A stretch of DNA of 27,903 bases, taken from NCBI GenBank assembly GCA_026990725.1, contig JALXCX010000056.1:1-27903 (forward strand). Direction: 5' to 3'. Made by a program: the position numbers and the translations under genes. The DNA comes from Desulfobulbaceae bacterium (lineage in GTDB: Bacteria; Desulfobacterota; Desulfobulbia; Desulfobulbales; Desulfobulbaceae). Below the pieces are notes generated by a model that saw nothing but the letters and a program-made list of their open reading frames with translations, was not told the origin of the DNA and made no database searches. This document shows, in pieces, positions 1 through 9,432 of the stretch (position 1 is its first letter; the number at the start of each line of letters is the position of its first letter).

Positions 1-1069
1 TTTCAGAAATGACCTGACTCTGGCGTTTTTTGCAGGCCAGAAAAGCGGAAAAGGCCTGAAGGACTTCGTCAAGGTCCAAGTCGGCAAGTACGGCATGGCC
101 AAGAGCTGTTTCCAGCTGGTTTCTGGCAAAGTCGATGGATAAATCAAGATAGTCGGCATAGACTGCTGTCCGACGTGCGAGCAGCTCTTCCGGGGGCTGT
201 AAAGGCCTGTCTACAATGTCACCTGCGGTGGCCCAGCAGACCACCTTTTGACCAAAGGCCTGATTAAAAAGGGTTTCAATCTCCTGGTTGGCAAAGGCAT
301 TGCGGGTGGTGAGATGAAAGGTCTTGCCACGGTTTTCCCTGTTTTTTGAGAGGGCATAAATGATGTCGGCAACCTTGTCGTCAAAGACAAAGGGCATGCT
401 GCTCTCCCGATGGCCCCGCACCCGGATGATGTCGGGGCTTTTCCCGTGTCGCCGGGCCGAGAGCAGTAAGCGGAAAATGGCATCGAGAAAGGTAAACGGA
501 CCAAAGTTATTGCCTGAATCGCCGGTGGGATGGCGCTCCAGGATGATTCCGGGCCGGTAAATGGTGACAGGGATGCTCCGGGTATCCTGTTTTTTCCGCA
601 AAAAAAGTTCGCCGTAAAACTTGCTCTGTTCGTAAAAATTGCGAAATTTCTGGCCCTGGTCGAGCATCTCTTCTGTGAACTGCCCCTGCAACCTGCCGCA
701 GACAAAGGCTGTGCTCACATGGTGCAGAGAGGCTCGGGCCGTCGAGGCCAGGGTGTATACATTGCAGACCCCATTCATATTCACCGGCTGATAGTCGGCA
801 AGGGATTTTCCCTTGAAATCGGTGCGGGCGGCAAGATGATAGACAGTGTCGATTTTGTCTGCAAGAAGCTCATGGTCTGCCGGAGACAGGCCGAGATCTG
901 GACGTGCCACATCGCCCTGCAGCCAGTGCAGAGCGGGGTGGGCGGCAAAGAACTCGGGCTTGGGCGTGCGGCAGAGTATGGTCACCTCGGCGTTGTTTTC
1001 AAGAAGCTTTTTTACCAGATGTCTGCCCAGAATGCCTGTGCCGCCGGTGACAAGTATTGAGCTGTTCAT
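1..1069 (-). CDS. Extended SDR / thioester-reductase (NAD_binding_4, fatty acyl reductase-like) protein; 3' end lies beyond the left edge
   Basis: Not in the ORF track because it is open at the edge. Hand translation from the ATG at 1069: MNSSILVTGGTGILGRHLVKKLL...GDVARPDLGL...VYHLAARTDF...HHVSTAFVCG...NFYEQSK...IYRPGII, with no stop to base 2 (356 codons). Has the TGxxGxxG Rossmann motif, HxAA and catalytic YxxxK. Start overlaps the U32 stop (ATGA). Confidence 0.9.
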   Translation of the reverse strand, partial: MNSSILVTGGTGILGRHLVKKLLENNAEVTILCRTPKPEFFAAHPALHWLQGDVARPDLGLSPADHELLADKIDTVYHLAARTDFKGKSLADYQPVNMNGVCNVYTLASTARASLHHVSTAFVCGRLQGQFTEEMLDQGQKFRNFYEQSKFYGELFLRKKQDTRSIPVTIYRPGIILERHPTGDSGNNFGPFTFLDAIFRLLLSARRHGKSPDIIRVRGHRESSMPFVFDDKVADIIYALSKNRENRGKTFHLTTRNAFANQEIETLFNQAFGQKVVCWATAGDIVDRPLQPPEELLARRTAVYADYLDLSIDFARNQLETALGHAVLADLDLDEVLQAFSAFLACKKRQSQVISE

Positions 1070-2277
1070 TCTGCCATGTCCTGCCGTTGTATCTGTTGCT
1101 GCCATTTTTTCCCGGCCTGGCGGGTTTCTCCACTGGTGGGGATATGGGTTTTCAGATGCTGAATGTTGTCTTTCATATTGGCAATATAGCGTGCCCGCAG
1201 GGCGTTGTCACCCCGGTCAAGTGCCTTGCGGCTCCAGGTATGGCAGTGGTTGCAGCCGTCGCAGCCCAGGCGGCAGTCCCGGTTTTTTTGGGCAAAAAAT
1301 TTCAGGAAGCCCTCCAGCTTGCTGTTGTCAAGGGAGATGTCCAGGGGACTCAGGGTTGTTCCGTCCGTGCATTTGTTGAACTGCTGCCAGTGGGGCCAGC
1401 CGAGCAGGTCAAGCAGGTTGCCGGAAAAGGACCTGCCAAGATAGGCCCGGCAGAGGCGGATGATTTCATCTTCCGGCAGGCCGCGTCCGGCCAGCTTGAA
1501 GAACCGGATACCGATATCTTCCCATAGACCCATGTCCTCAGGGCGGAGCCACGGGCTTTTGAGAAATTCGCCTTCACGGCTGAGTTTTTCCAGAAAGCAC
1601 CAGTTGAGATAGAACTGATTATAAGGGGTGCCACCGGGGTGTTCCGGGCTGTCGTGGGAGCCGAAAGCGGCCACGGCGTAGTGGTTAAACTTGTAATGAC
1701 ACTGGTAAATGCAGACCGTGTTGACGATCAGCTCAATGGGTACCGGGCTGTTGCTGGCTGCCGTGCGGAGAAAGGAAAAATCGCGGTTGACTTCAACATC
1801 CAGAACCACCCGGCCTGCGCCTGCCCGGTGAAACTGTTCCAGTCCGCGCAGGGAGTCCACATAGCCGATGGTGGAAACCACCACCTCAAGCCGGGGAAAG
1901 GTGGCGCTGATGATTTCGGCAAGATAGGGCACAGTCACGGTGACAGAGTGGACCCCGCTGTCAACAAGAAAGCCGAGAATATGCTCAAGCTCTTTACGGC
2001 CTTTGTGGGTGTATTCAAGATTTGCGTAGGCCGGGGCATTGAAAAGGTAGTTGAAGCGCAAGCCCCTGTCCCGGGCGTCCTGGACATGACGGGCAAACCG
2101 GGCGGGTGAGACCCCGGGCAGGTATTTGGCTGGCCGGGCCGAGTTAAACGCCCCGAACTGGAGAGAACCGTACAGCTCGAAAACCTGGTCGCCGCCCTGG
2201 CCGTATTCCTCGTTAAGCCCTGCCACCTTGTCCAGAAAGGAGCCGGTAAAGGTCGTGGGAACGGTGAGCTGTATCAT
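1066..2277 (-). CDS. Peptidase U32 family Fe-S protein (UbiU/UbiV/TrhP/RlhA superfamily, probably a hydroxylase-type enzyme rather than a protease)
   Basis: 403 aa. Shows ELYGSL, FNYLFNA, VSTI, LDVEVNRDF, VNTVCIYQC..H, NWC, KSPWLRPED and FKLAGR, the U32 pattern with conserved Cys, plus a C-terminal CRLGCDGCNHC. Confidence 0.8.
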   Translation of the reverse strand: MIQLTVPTTFTGSFLDKVAGLNEEYGQGGDQVFELYGSLQFGAFNSARPAKYLPGVSPARFARHVQDARDRGLRFNYLFNAPAYANLEYTHKGRKELEHILGFLVDSGVHSVTVTVPYLAEIISATFPRLEVVVSTIGYVDSLRGLEQFHRAGAGRVVLDVEVNRDFSFLRTAASNSPVPIELIVNTVCIYQCHYKFNHYAVAAFGSHDSPEHPGGTPYNQFYLNWCFLEKLSREGEFLKSPWLRPEDMGLWEDIGIRFFKLAGRGLPEDEIIRLCRAYLGRSFSGNLLDLLGWPHWQQFNKCTDGTTLSPLDISLDNSKLEGFLKFFAQKNRDCRLGCDGCNHCHTWSRKALDRGDNALRARYIANMKDNIQHLKTHIPTSGETRQAGKKWQQQIQRQDMAE

Positions 2278-3317
2278 TTGCTGCCGATTGCCTTGTCAAG
2301 GATCACGGTAGATTGTGCCAGTTGCAGATCGTAGCTTTTTCCCGGCTGGTTGCGGACAAGCTGGAGCAGGTATTTGCCGGAAACCAGGGGCGAACCGAAG
2401 CTGTCAGCAGTGATAACAACCTGTTTACTATCCCCCGGGGCAAAGGGTTGATCCGAATTGTTGAGGGGAGTTGAGGATGAAAGAGGGCTTGAGGGGTTGC
2501 TTTTTTCCGGTGTGATGATCAGGGAAAGCGATGACTGTGTATATTCTCCGCCCGGCAGGTTGTGTGGCAGAAGGTTGGTTACGCGGACCAGCAGGGAATC
2601 GTTTTCACCCCTTTCTGCCGTCATCTGCACGGCATTGGGAAACCCGGCCATGTCGGTAAGGTCTATCCGATGGTTTCGCACGGTATGTTGCTGTTCAAAA
2701 GAGACCAGCATCCGGGAAAAGATATTTGTACCCCTGGTCGATGTCCTCCTGACCTCCTGCATGTGGCATTGCTGACATTGTGGAACCCGGACAGCAGGAC
2801 GCTGCATTGTGACACGGCTCTTCCATGTGGCAAAAGTCTCTTCATGGCAAACGCCACACAGAGCACTTGAGCGGTAAAAGGCTGTATCCGCCTGTATCGG
2901 ATGGGGATATACCAGGGCGGAGCCGTCATGTGGGCCATACATGGTTTTTTGCTCCAGGTGGCAGGAGATACAGGAAATACCTTCATGACGGGACCAGGTG
3001 CGGGCTTCCAGCTCGTCTGTGCGGATGGAGGCGGGAACATGGCAGGCCAGACAGCTTTTCTCGTCATAATCGTCTGTGGCTTCACGGTAGATGGGGTCTG
3101 TATAAGAGAGATTATGGGCAGAACCCTGCCATTCTCTGTACTGATCTACATGACAGCTTCCGCAGTCGGCAGAGGCTGGTCCTACTCCACGGACAGGATC
3201 AACGGTTGTCAGATGGTCAAATCCTGTGCATCCCTGAAGCGTAATGAGAAATATCCCGAAGAAAAAAAACTGGCAGAGGGGGCGTCTTGCTCTGGCTGGA
3301 AATAGAGTATAAAGCAT
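2274..3317 (-). CDS. Pentaheme c-type cytochrome (c554/c-prime-like), probable lipoprotein
   Basis: Five CxxCH motifs (CGSCH, CLACH, CISCH, CGVCH, CQQCH). Basic/hydrophobic N-terminus ends in a lipobox-like LQGC. Stop overlaps the U32 start (ATGA, 2274-2277). Confidence 0.88.
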   Translation of the reverse strand: MLYTLFPARARRPLCQFFFFGIFLITLQGCTGFDHLTTVDPVRGVGPASADCGSCHVDQYREWQGSAHNLSYTDPIYREATDDYDEKSCLACHVPASIRTDELEARTWSRHEGISCISCHLEQKTMYGPHDGSALVYPHPIQADTAFYRSSALCGVCHEETFATWKSRVTMQRPAVRVPQCQQCHMQEVRRTSTRGTNIFSRMLVSFEQQHTVRNHRIDLTDMAGFPNAVQMTAERGENDSLLVRVTNLLPHNLPGGEYTQSSLSLIITPEKSNPSSPLSSSTPLNNSDQPFAPGDSKQVVITADSFGSPLVSGKYLLQLVRNQPGKSYDLQLAQSTVILDKAIGSK

Positions 3318-3374: not shown

Positions 3375-3402
3375 AGTGTACCACATAGTGCTTAAATTTC
3401 AA
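3375..3402 (-). promoter_or_regulatory. Putative sigma70 promoter for the cytochrome-U32-SDR operon
   Basis: Minus strand reads TTGAAA-16 nt-TACACT, with TG in the extended -10 position (TGgTACACT), about 58 nt upstream of the ATG at 3317. Confidence 0.5.
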
Positions 3403-3434: not shown

Positions 3435-4388
3435 TTATTCGTCTTCCAAGGTGCGGCAGAGACGGGCAAAACCTCCGGGAACAGTACCCGACGACCAGTA
3501 AACTTTGCCCTGTTTATAGTCCACAAACCAGTAGCCGGTGGGCTGTCGGGTTGCCTGAACAAAGATAAATGGCTGTTCTGCAGAAAAACAGAGCGGCAGG
3601 TGAAGCCCTTTGCTGTTTGGCCTGTTTTGCATCAAAGAAAGGGCCTCTTCAAGACTGGGCAGCCGCCAGTCGTCGTGTCCTTCGTGGTTCCTGGCGTTGA
3701 GTTCCCTGATCTTTTTTTTCATGGTGCGGATGGAGCAGAGGTCAAGGCCATACTGTTGCCACATAAGGTTTGTGGCTTCATCTCTGATAACGGGTTGAGA
3801 GATCGGGGAGGTCAACACGTTGTGAAAACCTCCGTCGGGGTTCTGGTCAGTATCAAAAGAATTCCGGTCAATAATTATTGAGCGCACCTGGTTATCGCTT
3901 AGCCTGGCGTTTCGTCCAGGCAGGATTACCTGGTGATCAGGTGGGGTAACGGCGCCGGGTTCGGGTAGAGGTTCTCCCATATCCTCAGCAGAGTCCTCAT
4001 TTGTCGTTATCGGCCGGCGCAGGTAGGGGCTGTTGTCTGGGTTGATTACTTCACGGATGAGCCAGGCCTTCAGTGCCGAATCAATGGGGAAATTATCCCG
4101 GGAAGAGCGGGTGCCACCCTGGCCGACAATGCAGTTGTAAAGCATTTCCTGGGGAGCTGATATTTCAGCAAGAATATTGACATGACGGTCCCCTCGTTCC
4201 ATCAGGAACAACCTGGGGCTGTTGCCCCAGTTGTCTATAAAAAAATAGCAGACTTGTTCGGTTGAACCTGTAAGTTCCTCCCGCAGTCCTTTTGCGGAGA
4301 ATGTGCAGAAGGCCAGGTCGGGAGTCATTCCCCATTCGATGGAATCTTTGGTAGATTGACTGAGTTTAATCTGTGCAAAATCAGGCAT
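3435..4388 (-). CDS. DVU0772-like N-terminal domain fused to a DUF1566 (Lcl C-terminal) domain
   Basis: C-terminal IRDEATNLMWQQ...GHDDWRLPSLEEALSL...YWFVDYKQG is typical of DUF1566. N-terminal IEWGMTP...YFFIDNW..PRLFLMER...LAEI resembles the DVU0772 family (from recall). Start moved to the ATG at 4388, which has GAGG 6 nt upstream. Confidence 0.75.
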   Translation of the reverse strand: MPDFAQIKLSQSTKDSIEWGMTPDLAFCTFSAKGLREELTGSTEQVCYFFIDNWGNSPRLFLMERGDRHVNILAEISAPQEMLYNCIVGQGGTRSSRDNFPIDSALKAWLIREVINPDNSPYLRRPITTNEDSAEDMGEPLPEPGAVTPPDHQVILPGRNARLSDNQVRSIIIDRNSFDTDQNPDGGFHNVLTSPISQPVIRDEATNLMWQQYGLDLCSIRTMKKKIRELNARNHEGHDDWRLPSLEEALSLMQNRPNSKGLHLPLCFSAEQPFIFVQATRQPTGYWFVDYKQGKVYWSSGTVPGGFARLCRTLEDE

Positions 4389-4486
4389 GGTCAACCTCAA
4401 ATATTAATAAGATAGAATATTATTATCAGGATAACCATGTGTCTTGCAATGGGTTTTTAATTTTTATTAAAAGAAAAGTTTTTGGC

Positions 4487-7743: not shown

Positions 7744-8091
7744 ATGAAGAAAGTTGTACTTTTCGCTTTTCGCGGCGATCCCATGTGTTTTGTTCACGTC
7801 CTGCTCAATGCTCTTGATTTGGCAGATAAGGGGTTGGAGGGTGGTATTGTTATTGAGGGAGACGCTGTTAAACTTGTTCCTGAAATGGGCAAACCTGACC
7901 ATTTTCTTTATCAGCTTTATACCCAAGCCCGGGAAAAAAATCTCATAATCGGAGCGTGCAAAGCCTGTTCAACAAAATTGGGCGTTGCCGATGATGTTCA
8001 GGCAGAAGGAGTTGAGCTGATTGGCTCCATGTCGGGGCATCCGGGAGTTGCTGAGTACATAGCCCAGGGGTATACGGTTCTTACGTTTTAG
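7744..8091 (+). CDS. DsrE/DsrF-like family protein
   Basis: 115 aa. Shows LFAFRGDPMCFVHVLLNAL, IVIEGDAV and GACKACS; size and the CxxC position fit DsrE-like proteins. Confidence 0.7.
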   Translation: MKKVVLFAFRGDPMCFVHVLLNALDLADKGLEGGIVIEGDAVKLVPEMGKPDHFLYQLYTQAREKNLIIGACKACSTKLGVADDVQAEGVELIGSMSGHPGVAEYIAQGYTVLTF

Positions 8092-8211
8092 AATGAGTTC
8101 TCAGGCAGTACTGCAGATTTATAAAAAATATCGTGGTGTTCTTTGTAAAGCAGTGGATGCCATTATCGTTTTTCAGATCATTAGTTTCAATATCTCAACA
8201 GGAGGGGCGGA

Positions 8212-9432
8212 GTGAAACCAGTCGAGTTAGCAAAAAATGTGTATTGGGTCGGAGCCATAGACTGGCTGACCAGAGATTTTCATGGATATTCCACCAAGCG
8301 GGGCACAACGTATAACGCATATTTGATTGTTGATGAAAAGGTGACGCTTATTGACACGGTTAAAGCCGGTTATCGTAGCGAACTGATGCATCATATTCGT
8401 TCAATTATCGACCCTGAAAAAATTGATTATCTGGTGGTCAATCATGTAGAAATGGATCATTCCGGTTCTCTTCCAGAGGTTATAGAGGAGATCCAACCTG
8501 AAAAAGTGATCTGTTCAAAAATGGGGCACAAGGCCTTGCTCAAACATTTTCATCAGGAGGACTGGCCCTATCACATCGTGACCCCTGGTGAGGAATTAAG
8601 CCTTGGCGAAAAGACATTAAGTTTTCTGGAAACCAGGATGCTGCATTGGCCTGATTCCATGTTTACATATATTAAAGAGGATCAGATTGTTTTTTCAAGT
8701 GACGCTTTTGGCCAGCACCTGGGGACAAGTGAGCGTTTTGACGATGAAGTGAATCAGGATGTTTTGATGTTTGAATCAACAAAGTATTATGCAAACATCC
8801 TTACACTGTATTCACCTATTGTCAAAAAACTCATCGCCCAGATTGAGGAGATGCAACTGCCAATCAAGATGATTGCCCCGGATCATGGCGTGATCTGGCG
8901 TGATAATCCCGGTAAAATAATCAAGGCCTATTCCCGTTGGTGCGCTCATGAAGGAAAGGGTAATGCGCTGGTTATCTATGATACCATGTGGCATTCAACG
9001 AAAAAAATGGCAAAGGCGATCGCCGAGGGGCTCCAGGAAAAAGGGATTAGCTATAAATTACTTGATCTGCAGGTGAATCATCGGAGTGATGTTATGACCG
9101 ATGTGCTTGATGCCAGTGCGGTCATTCTTGGTTGTTCGACATTGAATAATGGTATGTTACCGCGTATGGCTGGATTTTTGATGTATATGCGTGGCCTTCG
9201 TCCTACCAACAAGATTGGCGCGGCTTTTGGTTCATACGGCTGGTCTGGCGAGGCTGTGAAGCTTATGAATAAATCCATGCTGGAGATGAAGTTTACCATG
9301 GTGCATGAGGGGTTGCGGGTGCAGTATGTACCAGAGGACGCTCATTTACGTGAATGTATTGAGCTTGGACATACGATTGCCGATGCTCTAAAGGCCACGC
9401 AATCCGGAAGGGAAGTCGATTCGGTGTTGTAA
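8212..9432 (+). CDS. fprA: Flavodiiron protein (FprA / rubredoxin:oxygen oxidoreductase)
   Basis: GTTYNAYLI, HVEMDHSG, LHWPDSM, SDAFGQH and PDHG metallo-beta-lactamase diiron motifs, plus a flavodoxin domain (YDTMWHST, GSYGWSG). GTG start with AGGAGG RBS. Confidence 0.96.
   Translation: MKPVELAKNVYWVGAIDWLTRDFHGYSTKRGTTYNAYLIVDEKVTLIDTVKAGYRSELMHHIRSIIDPEKIDYLVVNHVEMDHSGSLPEVIEEIQPEKVICSKMGHKALLKHFHQEDWPYHIVTPGEELSLGEKTLSFLETRMLHWPDSMFTYIKEDQIVFSSDAFGQHLGTSERFDDEVNQDVLMFESTKYYANILTLYSPIVKKLIAQIEEMQLPIKMIAPDHGVIWRDNPGKIIKAYSRWCAHEGKGNALVIYDTMWHSTKKMAKAIAEGLQEKGISYKLLDLQVNHRSDVMTDVLDASAVILGCSTLNNGMLPRMAGFLMYMRGLRPTNKIGAAFGSYGWSGEAVKLMNKSMLEMKFTMVHEGLRVQYVPEDAHLRECIELGHTIADALKATQSGREVDSVL

What the first reader, a model, noticed from the sequence alone, without database searches (positions are those of the whole stretch)
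1..3317. Coupled operon: pentaheme lipoprotein cytochrome, U32 Fe-S protein, thioester-reductase SDR
Seen in sequence: three minus-strand genes chained by two exact ATGA stop/start overlaps (2274-2277 and 1066-1069) behind their own candidate promoter. The third gene is absent from the ORF track. Established knowledge: characterised U32 Fe-S proteins (UbiU/UbiV, TrhP, RlhA) perform O2-independent hydroxylation, and NAD_binding_4 SDRs reduce acyl-CoA or acyl-carrier thioesters to aldehydes or alcohols (FAR, CAR and NRPS R domains). Inference: this is the start of an anaerobic lipid or small-molecule tailoring pathway (hydroxylation plus reductive release, for example fatty alcohol or ether-lipid precursors), possibly with an extracytoplasmic multiheme partner. 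I know of no described system with this combination. The operon continues beyond the left edge.
Basis: partly seen in the sequence, partly recalled or inferred. Interest (0 to 1): 0.7.

Follow-up and report, generated by a model that had tools for sequence, protein, structure and literature searches.

The report
Anaerobic acid-to-amine lipid operon with cytochrome
These three genes start an undescribed seven-gene operon of sulfur-cycling Desulfobulbales. It probably turns a membrane-bound carboxylic acid into an amine without oxygen and exports it towards a five-heme periplasmic cytochrome, so it may make a new redox-active lipid.

Summary
Three minus-strand genes are chained by exact ATGA overlaps: a five-heme lipoprotein cytochrome (2274-3317), a divergent U32-like Fe-S protein (1066-2277) and a thioester-reductase-type SDR (1-1069, cut by the contig end).

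The trio is the head of a seven-gene operon kept in the same order in about 40 Desulfobulbales loci. A 96.6% identical vent-metagenome scaffold shows what lies left of base 1. The downstream genes are an SCP2 lipid-binding domain fused to the SDR, a PatA/PigE-type class III aminotransferase, an HAE3/HpnN-like RND exporter, an EhpF/LuxE-type adenylating enzyme and a small alpha/beta hydrolase.

The supported logic is carboxylate to acyl-adenylate or thioester, then aldehyde, then primary amine, then export, with one oxygen-independent U32-type step. No ACP, PKS or acyltransferase is present.

A c-type cytochrome heads every variant of the module, in some lineages together with a cytochrome b plus 16-19-heme unit. 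I therefore favour a redox-active, quinone-type product over a plain fatty amine. The substrate and product are not shown.

The U32-like protein lies outside UbiU/UbiV/TrhP/RlhA and has a different cysteine pattern. No paper describing the system was found. Earlier notes of this scan reported the same operon on other genomes.

The parts
2274..3317 (-). Pentaheme lipoprotein c-type cytochrome of the PHC / T. tepidum c552 family (347 aa); first gene of the operon
   Evidence: Five CXXCH motifs and lipobox Cys30 are invariant in 17 orthologues, as are His68/139/216/252 and an N-x-LPH-x-LPTG motif. The profile hits PDB 5ze8 at 8.7e-11. Foldseek's top hit is 5ze8 at 9.7e-10. Pfam gives Cytochrome_C554 and Cytochrome_C7.
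1066..2277 (-). Divergent U32-like Fe-S protein (403 aa) with seven conserved cysteines: C189-x3-C193, C227, and C335-x3-C339-x2-C342-x2-C345
   Evidence: PF01136 scores 28.3 bits over residues 95-183. The AlphaFold model has pLDDT 93.5. Foldseek's top hit is the U32 protein Mk0906 (5d88), E 1.1e-10, TMt 0.75. hhalign places C189 on UbiU C169. Family-HMM scores put it outside the E. coli U32 clades.
1..1069 (-). 5' part (356 of about 480 codons) of a thioester-reductase / fatty-acyl-reductase-type SDR. In relatives it carries a C-terminal SCP2 lipid-binding domain.
   Evidence: PF07993 NAD_binding_4 scores 137.6 bits. NCBIfam gives PRK07201 and TIGR01746, both below cut-off. GGTGILG lies at residue 9 and YEQSK at 146. 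The full gene in the 96.6% identical scaffold L218 is 480 aa with SCP2. The G007 orthologue has SCP2 at 21.5 bits.
2274..2277 (-). ATGA stop/start overlap between the cytochrome and U32-like genes
   Evidence: Read directly in the sequence. The same overlap is in L218.
1066..1069 (-). ATGA stop/start overlap between the U32-like and SDR genes
   Evidence: Read directly in the sequence. The same overlap is in G007 and L218.
3375..3402 (-). Candidate sigma-70-type promoter (TTGAAA, 16 nt spacer, TG-extended TACACT) in the 117-nt gap before the cytochrome gene; weak
   Evidence: 9 of 12 consensus matches. The region holds 7 such sites against 2.8 expected.

Best explanation
The three genes are the first three of a self-contained seven-gene operon: cytochrome, U32-like, SDR-SCP2, aminotransferase, RND pump, adenylating enzyme, hydrolase.

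Proposed mechanism:
1. The EhpF/LuxE-type adenylating enzyme activates the carboxyl group of a hydrophobic acid. The small alpha/beta hydrolase may free or hand over that acid.
2. The NAD(P)H-dependent thioester-reductase-type SDR reduces the activated acid to an aldehyde. Its fused SCP2 domain holds the greasy substrate.
3. The PatA/PigE-type class III aminotransferase turns the aldehyde into a primary amine.
4. The U32-like Fe-S enzyme performs an oxygen-independent oxidation of the same scaffold, most likely a hydroxylation as in UbiU/UbiV.
5. The HAE3/HpnN-like RND pump moves the product out of the cytoplasmic membrane.
6. The pentaheme lipoprotein cytochrome exchanges electrons with the product in the periplasm.

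My preferred substrate class is a membrane-bound aromatic acid of the menaquinone (futalosine) route. That would give a redox-active amino- or hydroxy-quinone-type lipid.

Shown: gene content, gene order, co-conservation and family assignments. Inferred: the order of steps, the U32 chemistry, and the identity of substrate and product.
For: Operon conservation:
- Seven genes lie in the same order in about 22 fetched genomes of four Desulfobulbia families and in 39 named Desulfobulbales loci.
- A 96.6% identical scaffold continues past base 1 with SCP2, aminotransferase and RND genes.

Enzyme assignments:
- The adenylating enzyme's profile matches PDB EhpF over its full length, E 8e-40. Plasmid homologues are annotated arylcarboxylate reductase or phenazine biosynthesis protein.
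- The SDR's nearest solved relatives are the thioester reductases MxaA and CAR.
- The aminotransferase's nearest relatives are E. coli putrescine aminotransferase (1e-95) and PigE (8e-89).
- Adenylation, thioester reduction and transamination are a proven route from acid to amine in TamA/TamH and PigE (PMC9594044, PMC8341465).
- The RND pump is HAE3/HpnN-like.

U32 as an integral part:
- The U32 fold is supported.
- In a distant variant (L174) a canonical double-domain U32 protein (PF01136, 297 bits) takes the same place in the module.
- SCP2 plus U32 parallels UbiT/UbiU/UbiV (PMC6747719).

Cytochrome link in every variant found:
- A PHC pentaheme in Desulfobulbales, L174, L176 and L186.
- A class I cytochrome c in L073/L171 and in L175.
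- A cytochrome b (PF01292) plus a 16-19-heme unit beside the PHC in L107, L119 and L174.

Pathway background: all five operon-bearing genomes tested have MqnA/MqnD-family genes and no MenB above cut-off.
Against: - No substrate or product is known and nothing here is biochemical.
- The SDR scores best against fatty-acyl reductase models.
- LuxE-type enzymes act on fatty acids.
- Paralogous U32-like genes sit in LuxC/LuxE/FabZ/KAS lipid clusters. These points fit a fatty-acyl substrate as well.
- No menaquinone gene lies next to the operon in any locus I read. Futalosine genes are general in Desulfobacterota (PMC13386864), so searches do not discriminate.
- The operon has no carrier protein, so how a thioester-type reductase receives its substrate is unexplained.
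- The U32-like protein lacks the canonical CX6C...CX3C ligand pattern, so its chemistry may differ from hydroxylation.
- One variant (L175) has no U32 gene and another (L073) has no aminotransferase. The steps are therefore modular.
- The cytochrome is periplasmic while all the enzymes are cytoplasmic. A direct enzymatic role for it is not evident.
Confidence: 0.5

Rival explanations
1. Fatty-acid route. The operon frees and activates an ordinary fatty acid (LuxD/LuxE-like), reduces it to a fatty aldehyde (FAR-like SDR) and aminates it. It then exports a (hydroxy) fatty amine or amino lipid to the outer membrane. The cytochrome is only loosely connected.
For: - The SDR's best models are fatty-acyl reductase-type (PRK07201 and NAD_binding_4).
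- The ESM Atlas places the adenylating enzyme nearest LuxE-named clusters.
- TamA/TamH make fatty amines by the same logic (PMC9594044).
- The RND pump resembles the lipid exporter HpnN.
- Paralogous U32-like genes lie in LuxC/LuxE/FabG/FabZ/KAS/B12-radical-SAM lipid clusters. One homologue follows plsX-acpP-fabG-fabF.
Against: - A fatty amine is not redox-active, yet a c-type cytochrome heads every variant of the module, even when its type changes and even without U32.
- In some lineages a cytochrome b plus multiheme unit sits beside it.
- Characterised U32 enzymes hydroxylate aromatic or heteroaromatic carbons, not alkyl chains (established knowledge; PMC6747719).
- The only solved relative of the adenylating enzyme acts in phenazine dicarboxylate tailoring.
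Confidence: 0.25
2. The cytochrome gene is a co-transcribed but functionally separate respiratory gene. The other six genes form a catabolic or detoxifying unit for aldehydes, amines or hydrophobic acids, not a biosynthetic pathway.
For: - The aminotransferase is closest to the catabolic putrescine aminotransferase.
- HAE3 pumps can act in efflux.
- No scaffold-building gene is in the operon.
- PHC-family cytochromes have no assigned function (PMC11976967).
Against: - The cytochrome is linked by an ATGA overlap.
- It is kept at the head of the operon in all orthologous loci.
- It is replaced by other c-type cytochromes, not lost, in distant variants.
- A carboxylate reductase consumes ATP and NAD(P)H, which is unusual for catabolism.
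- The SCP2 fusion and the U32 partner fit biosynthetic tailoring.
Confidence: 0.08
3. The SDR is a nucleotide-sugar epimerase or dehydratase and the locus modifies a polysaccharide or lipid A sugar.
For: There are secondary Pfam hits to Epimerase, GDP_Man_Dehyd and RmlD_sub_bind.
Against: - NAD_binding_4 scores far higher (137.6 against 82.7 bits).
- Solved relatives are thioester reductases.
- No glycosyltransferase, nucleotidyltransferase or DegT-type aminotransferase is in any of the loci read.
Confidence: 0.02

Closest known systems
UbiT/UbiU/UbiV, O2-independent ubiquinone hydroxylation (E. coli; PMC6747719)
   Same: A U32-fold Fe-S protein is paired with an SCP2 lipid-binding domain in an anaerobe. 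The first conserved Cys (C189) aligns with the UbiU ligand C169. A distant variant of the module carries a canonical two-domain U32 protein.
   Different: There is a single U32-like protein, not a UbiU-UbiV pair. The family HMM scores only 13 bits on UbiU and nothing on UbiV. The Cys pattern is CX3C...C plus a C-terminal CX3CX2CX2C, instead of CX6C...CX3C. SCP2 is fused to a reductase. The hosts make menaquinone by the futalosine route, not ubiquinone.
EhpF/EhpG of D-alanylgriseoluteic acid (phenazine) biosynthesis, Pantoea agglomerans (PDB 3l2k/3hgu; Bera et al. 2010, as cited in PMC3175449)
   Same: The sixth gene of the operon is a full-length EhpF homologue, E 8e-40. It is a short ANL-type adenylating enzyme without the usual C-terminal subdomain and carries the GGTTG motif. 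It is paired with a reductase that should give an aldehyde. From memory, EhpF/EhpG are proposed to convert phenazine-1,6-dicarboxylate to the 6-formyl compound.
   Different: Identity is about 29%. The partner here is an NAD_binding_4 SDR, not an aldehyde-dehydrogenase-family EhpG. No phz genes are in the operon.
TamA/TamH (tambjamine) and PigE (prodigiosin): acid or thioester to aldehyde to amine (PMC9594044, PMC5939613, PMC8341465)
   Same: The chemical logic is the same: adenylation, thioester reduction, then class III transamination. The aminotransferase hits PigE at 442 bits (NCBIfam) and PDB 4ppm at 8e-89.
   Different: Here the three activities are separate genes rather than fused di-domains. 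No ACP is present. The operon adds U32, an RND pump, a hydrolase and a cytochrome, and it is not part of a pyrrole pigment cluster.
LuxCDE fatty acid reductase
   Same: Three roles are matched: acyl release (hydrolase), acyl activation (LuxE-related enzyme) and reduction to an aldehyde.
   Different: Pfam LuxE and LuxC models do not hit. The reductase is an SDR, not LuxC. The hydrolase is a COG2945-type protein (3trd/2i3d/2fuk), not LuxD.
PHC pentaheme cytochrome family: T. tepidum c552 (PDB 5ze8), Geobacter ExtKL/Gsu2801, cable-bacteria sPHC (PMC11976967)
   Same: It has five hemes, a C-terminal Ig-like beta domain and the shared N-x-PH-x-(L/M)PTG motif. 5ze8 is the top hit by both sequence profile and fold.
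   Different: It is a lipoprotein encoded at the head of a small-molecule tailoring operon. Identity to c552 is about 16%. No function is assigned to any family member.
HpnN / HAE3 RND lipid exporters
   Same: The fifth gene (in relatives) hits TIGR00921 HAE3 and TIGR03480 HpnN and carries sterol-sensing/Patched/MMPL-type domains.
   Different: All scores are below the curated cut-offs. The protein is about 660 aa against about 860. No hopanoid genes are present.

Membership tests
Peptidase_U32 superfamily (PF01136) | U32 TIM-barrel-like fold and a Pfam match above the gathering score | tested here: met
   PF01136 scores 28.3 bits against a 22.4 cut-off, but only over residues 95-183. The model (pLDDT 93.5) has 5d88 Mk0906 as top Foldseek hit, E 1.1e-10, TMt 0.75. 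The profile hits 5d88 at 1.1e-15.
Characterised U32 hydroxylases (UbiU, UbiV, TrhP, RlhA) | Canonical Fe-S ligand pattern CX6C...CX3C (or the UbiU/UbiV variants) and clustering with these clades | tested here: not met
   E. coli UbiU, TrhP and RlhA and the genome's own canonical U32 all have the CX6C pattern. The window protein has C189-x3-C193, C227 and a C-terminal C335-x3-C-x2-C-x2-C345. Family-HMM scores are TrhP 33, RlhA 27, UbiU 13 and UbiV none, against more than 400 bits for orthologues.
UbiT/UbiU/UbiV system | SCP2 protein plus two U32 subunits in a ubiquinone producer | tested here: not met
   SCP2 is present but fused to the SDR. There is only one U32-like gene. The hosts carry futalosine-route genes and no MenB. 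Ubi genes were not searched.
Thioester reductase / fatty acyl reductase SDRs (NAD_binding_4) | PF07993 match, Rossmann GxxGxxG and catalytic YxxxK | tested here: met
   PF07993 scores 137.6 bits. GGTGILG lies at residue 9 and YEQSK at 146. Nearest solved relatives are MxaA TR, a PKS TR and CAR.
NRPS/PKS/CAR-type terminal reductase | Adjacent carrier (PP-binding) domain that presents the thioester; TIGR01746 above cut-off | tested here: not met
   TIGR01746 scores 118.9 bits against a cut-off of 213. No PP-binding domain occurs in any of the seven products.
EhpF-type atypical ANL adenylating enzymes | Full-length similarity to EhpF, a phosphate-binding (S/T)GGTTG motif and no C-terminal ANL subdomain | tested here: met
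   The gene lies outside the window. The profile of 16 orthologues matches EhpF residues 21-366, E 7.6e-40. The length is about 350 aa.
EhpF/EhpG pair | Aldehyde-dehydrogenase-family partner (EhpG) next to the adenylating enzyme | tested here: not met
   Phenazine-type and haloarchaeal loci have an ALDH-family neighbour. This operon has an SDR instead.
LuxCDE | Pfam LuxC, LuxE and LuxD-type proteins | tested here: not met
   No LuxC or LuxE Pfam hit in the operon. BLASTP of the adenylating enzyme against a true LuxE-family neighbour of the paralogous cluster is not significant.
PHC / c552 pentaheme cytochromes | Five CXXCH motifs, c552-like heme domain plus C-terminal beta domain with the PH-x-x-PTG motif | tested here: met
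   The family is described in PMC11976967.
Class III aminotransferase, PatA/PigE subgroup | PF00202 match with PatA/PigE as nearest characterised relatives | tested here: met
   The gene lies outside the window. PF00202 scores 298.6 bits. PigE scores 442 and PatA 389 bits, both below their equivalog cut-offs. PDB 4uox hits at 1e-95.

The most novel reading that the evidence does not exclude
The operon makes and exports a previously unknown respiratory quinone-type lipid or electron shuttle. The candidate is an amino- or aminomethyl-hydroxy-naphthoquinone derived from a prenylated futalosine-pathway naphthoate. It would serve a dedicated extracytoplasmic chain built from PHC pentaheme cytochromes and, in some lineages, a CbcL-like cytochrome b plus multiheme quinol oxidase. 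That would be a new quinone and electron-transfer pairing in sulfur-disproportionating and vent-dwelling Desulfobulbales.
Probability: 0.25. Interest if true: 0.85.

Novelty: new variant of a known kind. Interest (0 to 1): 0.62.

Why it matters
Oxygen-independent tailoring of membrane redox lipids is known only from UbiT/UbiU/UbiV. The function of the PHC pentaheme cytochromes, now discussed as conduction components in cable bacteria, is open.

A conserved operon that ties three things together gives a concrete and testable handle on both questions: a U32-type enzyme, an acid-to-amine conversion with a lipid exporter, and a PHC cytochrome. The operon occurs in cultured strains, including Desulfocapsa sulfexigens, Desulforhopalus singaporensis, Desulfopila aestuarii and Hydrosulfovibrio ferrireducens.

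If the product is a new quinone or shuttle, it would change how electron flow is modelled in sulfur disproportionation and vent symbioses. If it is only a fatty amine lipid, it is still a new anaerobic lipid class with a new U32 subfamily.

Tried and rejected
- Rest of the operon in the window's own assembly: not found. The window starts at contig base 1. Searches with the G007 RND and aminotransferase proteins found only unrelated paralogues, in a genome 87% complete.
- Literature: no paper holds U32 + SCP2 + aminotransferase + thioester reductase in this sense. 'Arylcarboxylate reductase' gives no hits. The EhpF structure paper (PMC2879354) is not held.
- Direct BLASTP of the adenylating enzyme against a LuxE-family protein: not significant.
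- NCBIfam on the U32-like protein: no family.
- Distant U32-like homologues P0105, P0244 and P0245: uninformative neighbourhoods. P0115 lies among molybdopterin oxidoreductases.
- Adjacency to menaquinone genes, claimed in earlier scan notes for other phyla: not seen in any locus I read (L017, L019, L073, L174, L175, L195). I could not reach anammox or Omnitrophota loci.
- High-GC loci L176 and L186 could not be read gene by gene with my simple ORF picker. Only tblastn hits were used.
- Sequencing runs: no RNA holder listed. The DNA is held by hydrothermal vent metagenomes of several studies.
- Complex prediction was not used. No binding claim depends on it.

Full report
**Observation**

The window is contig C56 of a 2.46-Mb, 87% complete assembly and begins at base 1 of that contig. 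On the minus strand lie three ORFs:
- 2274-3317, 347 aa
- 1066-2277, 403 aa
- an ORF open at the edge, 2-1105

The two ATGA overlaps, at 2274-2277 and 1066-1069, are exact. The same 4-nt overlaps recur in the same-genus orthologue and at three successive junctions of a 96.6% identical scaffold. The coupling is therefore conserved and not a chance feature.

The candidate promoter at 3402-3375 matches only 9 of 12 consensus positions, in a region with several such sites. I treat it as weak.

**Gene 1: the cytochrome**

The product has a lipobox (Cys30) and five CXXCH motifs. All of these are invariant in 17 orthologues, along with four further histidines and an N-x-LPH-x-LPTG motif.

A profile of the family hits the pentaheme cytochrome c552 of Thermochromatium tepidum (PDB 5ze8) at 8.7e-11, including the PH-x-x-PTG motif. 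5ze8 is also the top Foldseek match of the model (pLDDT 74, E 9.7e-10).

This places the protein in the PHC family (ExtKL, Gsu2801, c552, cable-bacteria sPHC) described in PMC11976967. No member of that family has an assigned function.

**Gene 2: the U32-like protein**

Pfam sees only a partial U32 match (28.3 bits, residues 95-183) and NCBIfam sees nothing. A high-confidence model (pLDDT 93.5) has the only solved U32 protein, Mk0906 (5d88), as its best match (E 1.1e-10, TMt 0.75). Everything below that is a generic TIM barrel.

hhalign places Cys189 on the UbiU cluster ligand Cys169. The cysteine pattern differs, however:

| Protein group | Cysteine pattern |
|---|---|
| E. coli UbiU, TrhP, RlhA and the genome's own canonical 753-aa U32 | CX6C...CX3C |
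| This family | invariant C189-x3-C193, C227, and C-terminal C335-x3-C339-x2-C342-x2-C345 |

Scores of the family HMM:

| Target | Bits |
|---|---|
| Orthologues and homologues from A1 | more than 400 |
| Paralogues in LuxC/LuxE clusters | about 325 |
| A 358-aa paralogue in the same genome | 108 |
| E. coli TrhP | 33 |
| E. coli RlhA | 27 |
| Own canonical U32 | 25 |
| E. coli UbiU | 13 |
| E. coli UbiV | none |

The protein therefore belongs to the U32 fold but lies outside every characterised clade. An exhaustive search finds 947 clusters (at 50% identity) at E up to 1e-30. All Desulfobulbales orthologues fall into one of them.

**Gene 3: the SDR**

This is an NAD_binding_4 reductase (137.6 bits) with GGTGILG at residue 9 and YEQSK at 146. 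Its nearest solved relatives are the thioester reductases MxaA, a PKS TR domain, Mtb Nrp and CAR.

It is cut at codon 356. In relatives it is 470-486 aa and ends in an SCP2 domain, or SCP2 is a separate next gene.

**What lies beyond the left edge**

The following loci all show the same seven genes in the same order:
- same-genus genomes: G007, which is Ca. Desulfobulbus rimicarensis DR15, and G006
- Desulfocapsa sulfexigens DSM 10523
- Thiovibrio sp. JS02

The order is: cytochrome, U32-like, SDR(-SCP2), class III aminotransferase, a 660-aa RND transporter, a 350-aa protein without Pfam match, and a 215-aa alpha/beta hydrolase.

tblastn on 20 further genome loci and on 39 named Desulfobulbales loci shows the same order wherever the contig reaches. 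One locus is decayed (G058: TGA inside U32, three genes lost).

Scaffold L218 is 96.6% identical to window 1-3151 without gaps. It continues 2.2 kb past base 1 with the SCP2 end of the SDR, the aminotransferase (again an ATGA overlap) and the start of the RND gene.

Within the class, orthologues were found in about 21 of 301 genomes, in four families. The distribution is patchy.

**The downstream genes**

- *Aminotransferase.* It is closest to PigE (442 bits) and putrescine aminotransferase (389 bits) in NCBIfam, and to PDB 4uox (1e-95) and 4ppm (8e-89). These enzymes interconvert terminal aldehydes and primary amines.
- *The 'unknown' 350-aa protein.* It is a full-length homologue of EhpF (PDB 3l2k/3hgu, E 8e-40). 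EhpF is the atypical ANL adenylating enzyme of the phenazine D-alanylgriseoluteic acid pathway (reference in PMC3175449). The protein keeps an invariant E-T-G-G-T-T-G motif. Plasmid homologues are annotated arylcarboxylate reductase or phenazine biosynthesis protein, and they sit next to an aldehyde-dehydrogenase-family EhpG or a PKS.
- *RND protein.* It is HAE3/HpnN-like, below cut-off.
- *Hydrolase.* It belongs to the uncharacterised COG2945 type (3trd, 2i3d, 2fuk).
- *Absent.* No ACP, acyltransferase, PKS or glycosyltransferase occurs in the operon.

**Mechanism**

Adenylation, thioester-type reduction and class III transamination are a proven route from a carboxylic acid to a primary amine in TamA/TamH and PigE (PMC9594044, PMC5939613, PMC8341465). 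The operon has one gene for each step, a lipid-binding SCP2 domain on the reductase and a lipid-type exporter. I take acid to aldehyde to amine to export as the core.

The U32-like enzyme most likely adds an oxygen-independent hydroxylation, by analogy with SCP2 plus U32 in UbiT/UbiU/UbiV (PMC6747719). This step is inferred.

**Variants elsewhere**

Distant variants show which parts belong together:

| Locus | Content, in order |
|---|---|
| L073/L171 (metagenome, 40% GC) | class I cytochrome c, U32-like (39% id), SDR-SCP2, EhpF-like (38% id), YceI, DLH hydrolase, ABC exporter. No aminotransferase. |
| L174 (203-kb metagenome contig) | SDR-SCP2, EhpF-like, hydrolase, canonical two-domain U32 (297 bits, CX6C...CX3C), aminotransferase, PHC pentaheme lipoprotein (38% id), cytochrome b561 fused to 19 hemes |
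| L175 | class I cytochrome c, SDR, SCP2, hydrolase, EhpF-like, aminotransferase, MMPL pump. No U32. |
| L107, L119 (Desulfocapsaceae MAGs) | 16-19-heme cytochrome and a PF01292 cytochrome b flank the PHC gene directly upstream of U32 |

The nearest sister cluster of the U32-like protein (P0243) has an NAD_binding_4 SDR immediately upstream.

Three conclusions follow:
- A c-type cytochrome is the most constant companion of the reductase core.
- A U32-type enzyme, of either kind, is a frequent companion.
- The aminotransferase and the exporter type vary.

**Substrate class**

I favour a redox-active aromatic or quinone-type substrate for these reasons:
- The cytochrome link persists even without U32.
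- Cytochrome b plus multiheme units sit beside the PHC in some lineages. This architecture recalls Geobacter CbcL (my knowledge).
- The adenylating enzyme's relative acts on an aromatic acid.
- Known U32 enzymes hydroxylate aromatic carbons.

All five operon-bearing genomes tested carry MqnA/MqnD-family genes and no MenB above cut-off. This is consistent with Desulfobacterota preferring the futalosine route (PMC13386864), which passes through a prenylated naphthoate. The result is compatible with the main reading but does not discriminate.

Against it, no menaquinone gene is adjacent in any locus I read. The fatty-acid reading keeps real support: FAR-like scores, the LuxE relationship, and paralogous U32-like genes in LuxC/LuxE/FabG/FabZ/KAS/B12-radical-SAM/MMPL clusters.

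My confidence is about 0.7 for the generic pathway, 0.5 for the whole statement including a redox-active product, and 0.25 for the fatty-amine rival.

**Earlier notes of this scan**

After I had found EhpF, a look-up showed that the scan had already noted related operons on other DNA:
- the same seven-gene operon in another Desulfobulbales genome (e1-3118283)
- related modules in an anammox bacterium (e1-2930885)
- related modules in an Omnitrophota genome (e1-1010063)

All three carry a menaquinone-precursor reading. These are unchecked AI notes and not independent evidence. I confirmed the operon structure, the EhpF relationship, the occurrence of a double-U32 variant and the link to respiratory cytochromes on my own loci. 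I could not confirm adjacency to menaquinone genes.

**Novelty and verdict**

Every enzyme belongs to a known superfamily. The acid-to-amine logic and U32/SCP2 logic are known separately. Their combination with an RND exporter and a PHC cytochrome in one conserved operon is not described in the literature I could search. Neither is the CX3C / CX3CX2CX2C U32 subfamily.

I class it as a new variant of known kinds with an unknown product.

The window DNA occurs in hydrothermal vent metagenomes.

Noticed in passing
window 3435-4400 (-): The gene directly upstream on the same strand encodes a 321-aa protein with an N-terminal DVU0772-family domain (NCBIfam, 76.5 bits) and a C-terminal Lcl_C domain. 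The same neighbour precedes the operon in Ca. Desulfobulbus rimicarensis but not in other genera. Its function is unknown.
   Followed up: partly
L077 (G292:C19), L070 (G062:C11), L078 (G074:C68): A paralogous U32-like protein (30-34% id, same Cys pattern) sits inside a large lipid-type cluster. The cluster holds LuxE, LuxC, a FabG-like SDR, three B12-binding radical SAM enzymes, an 806-aa MMPL pump, an amine-oxidase/phytoene-desaturase-like flavoprotein, an LpxL-type acyltransferase, FabZ and a KAS. This is a second, independent link of this U32 subfamily to acyl activation, reduction and export.
   Followed up: partly
G000:C206:18903-19454 (L079 8769-9845, -): The window's own genome has a further 358-aa U32-like paralogue (108 bits to the family HMM). 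PF01136 does not detect it. It lies next to an FmdE-like gene and yajC. A canonical 753-aa U32 lies on contig C320.
   Followed up: partly
L055 / L097 (G058:C9, MAG Desulfocapsa sp. N3_15): This looks like a decaying copy of the operon. There is a TGA inside the U32-like gene, and the aminotransferase, RND and adenylating-enzyme genes are missing, while the cytochrome, U32 and SDR remain.
   Followed up: no
L174 15994-18504 (+); L107 6364-9954; L119 651-4230: A cytochrome b561 (PF01292) is fused to, or encoded beside, a 16-19-heme c-type cytochrome next to the PHC pentaheme gene. The arrangement is CbcL-like and attached to the tailoring module.
   Followed up: partly
L071 (Zixibacteria MAG) 8001-9080; L128-L131 (Bathyarchaeia): More distant members of the same U32-like subfamily (about 35% id, all Cys kept) lie among molybdopterin oxidoreductase genes in a Zixibacteria MAG and occur in Bathyarchaeia, Nanoarchaeota, Clostridia and Actinomycetota. 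The subfamily is therefore widespread and is not tied to one pathway.
   Followed up: no
L075 4878-6029: In one metagenome contig a 383-aa U32-like homologue directly follows a MaoC-plsX-acpP-fabG-fabF block and precedes rpsL.
   Followed up: no
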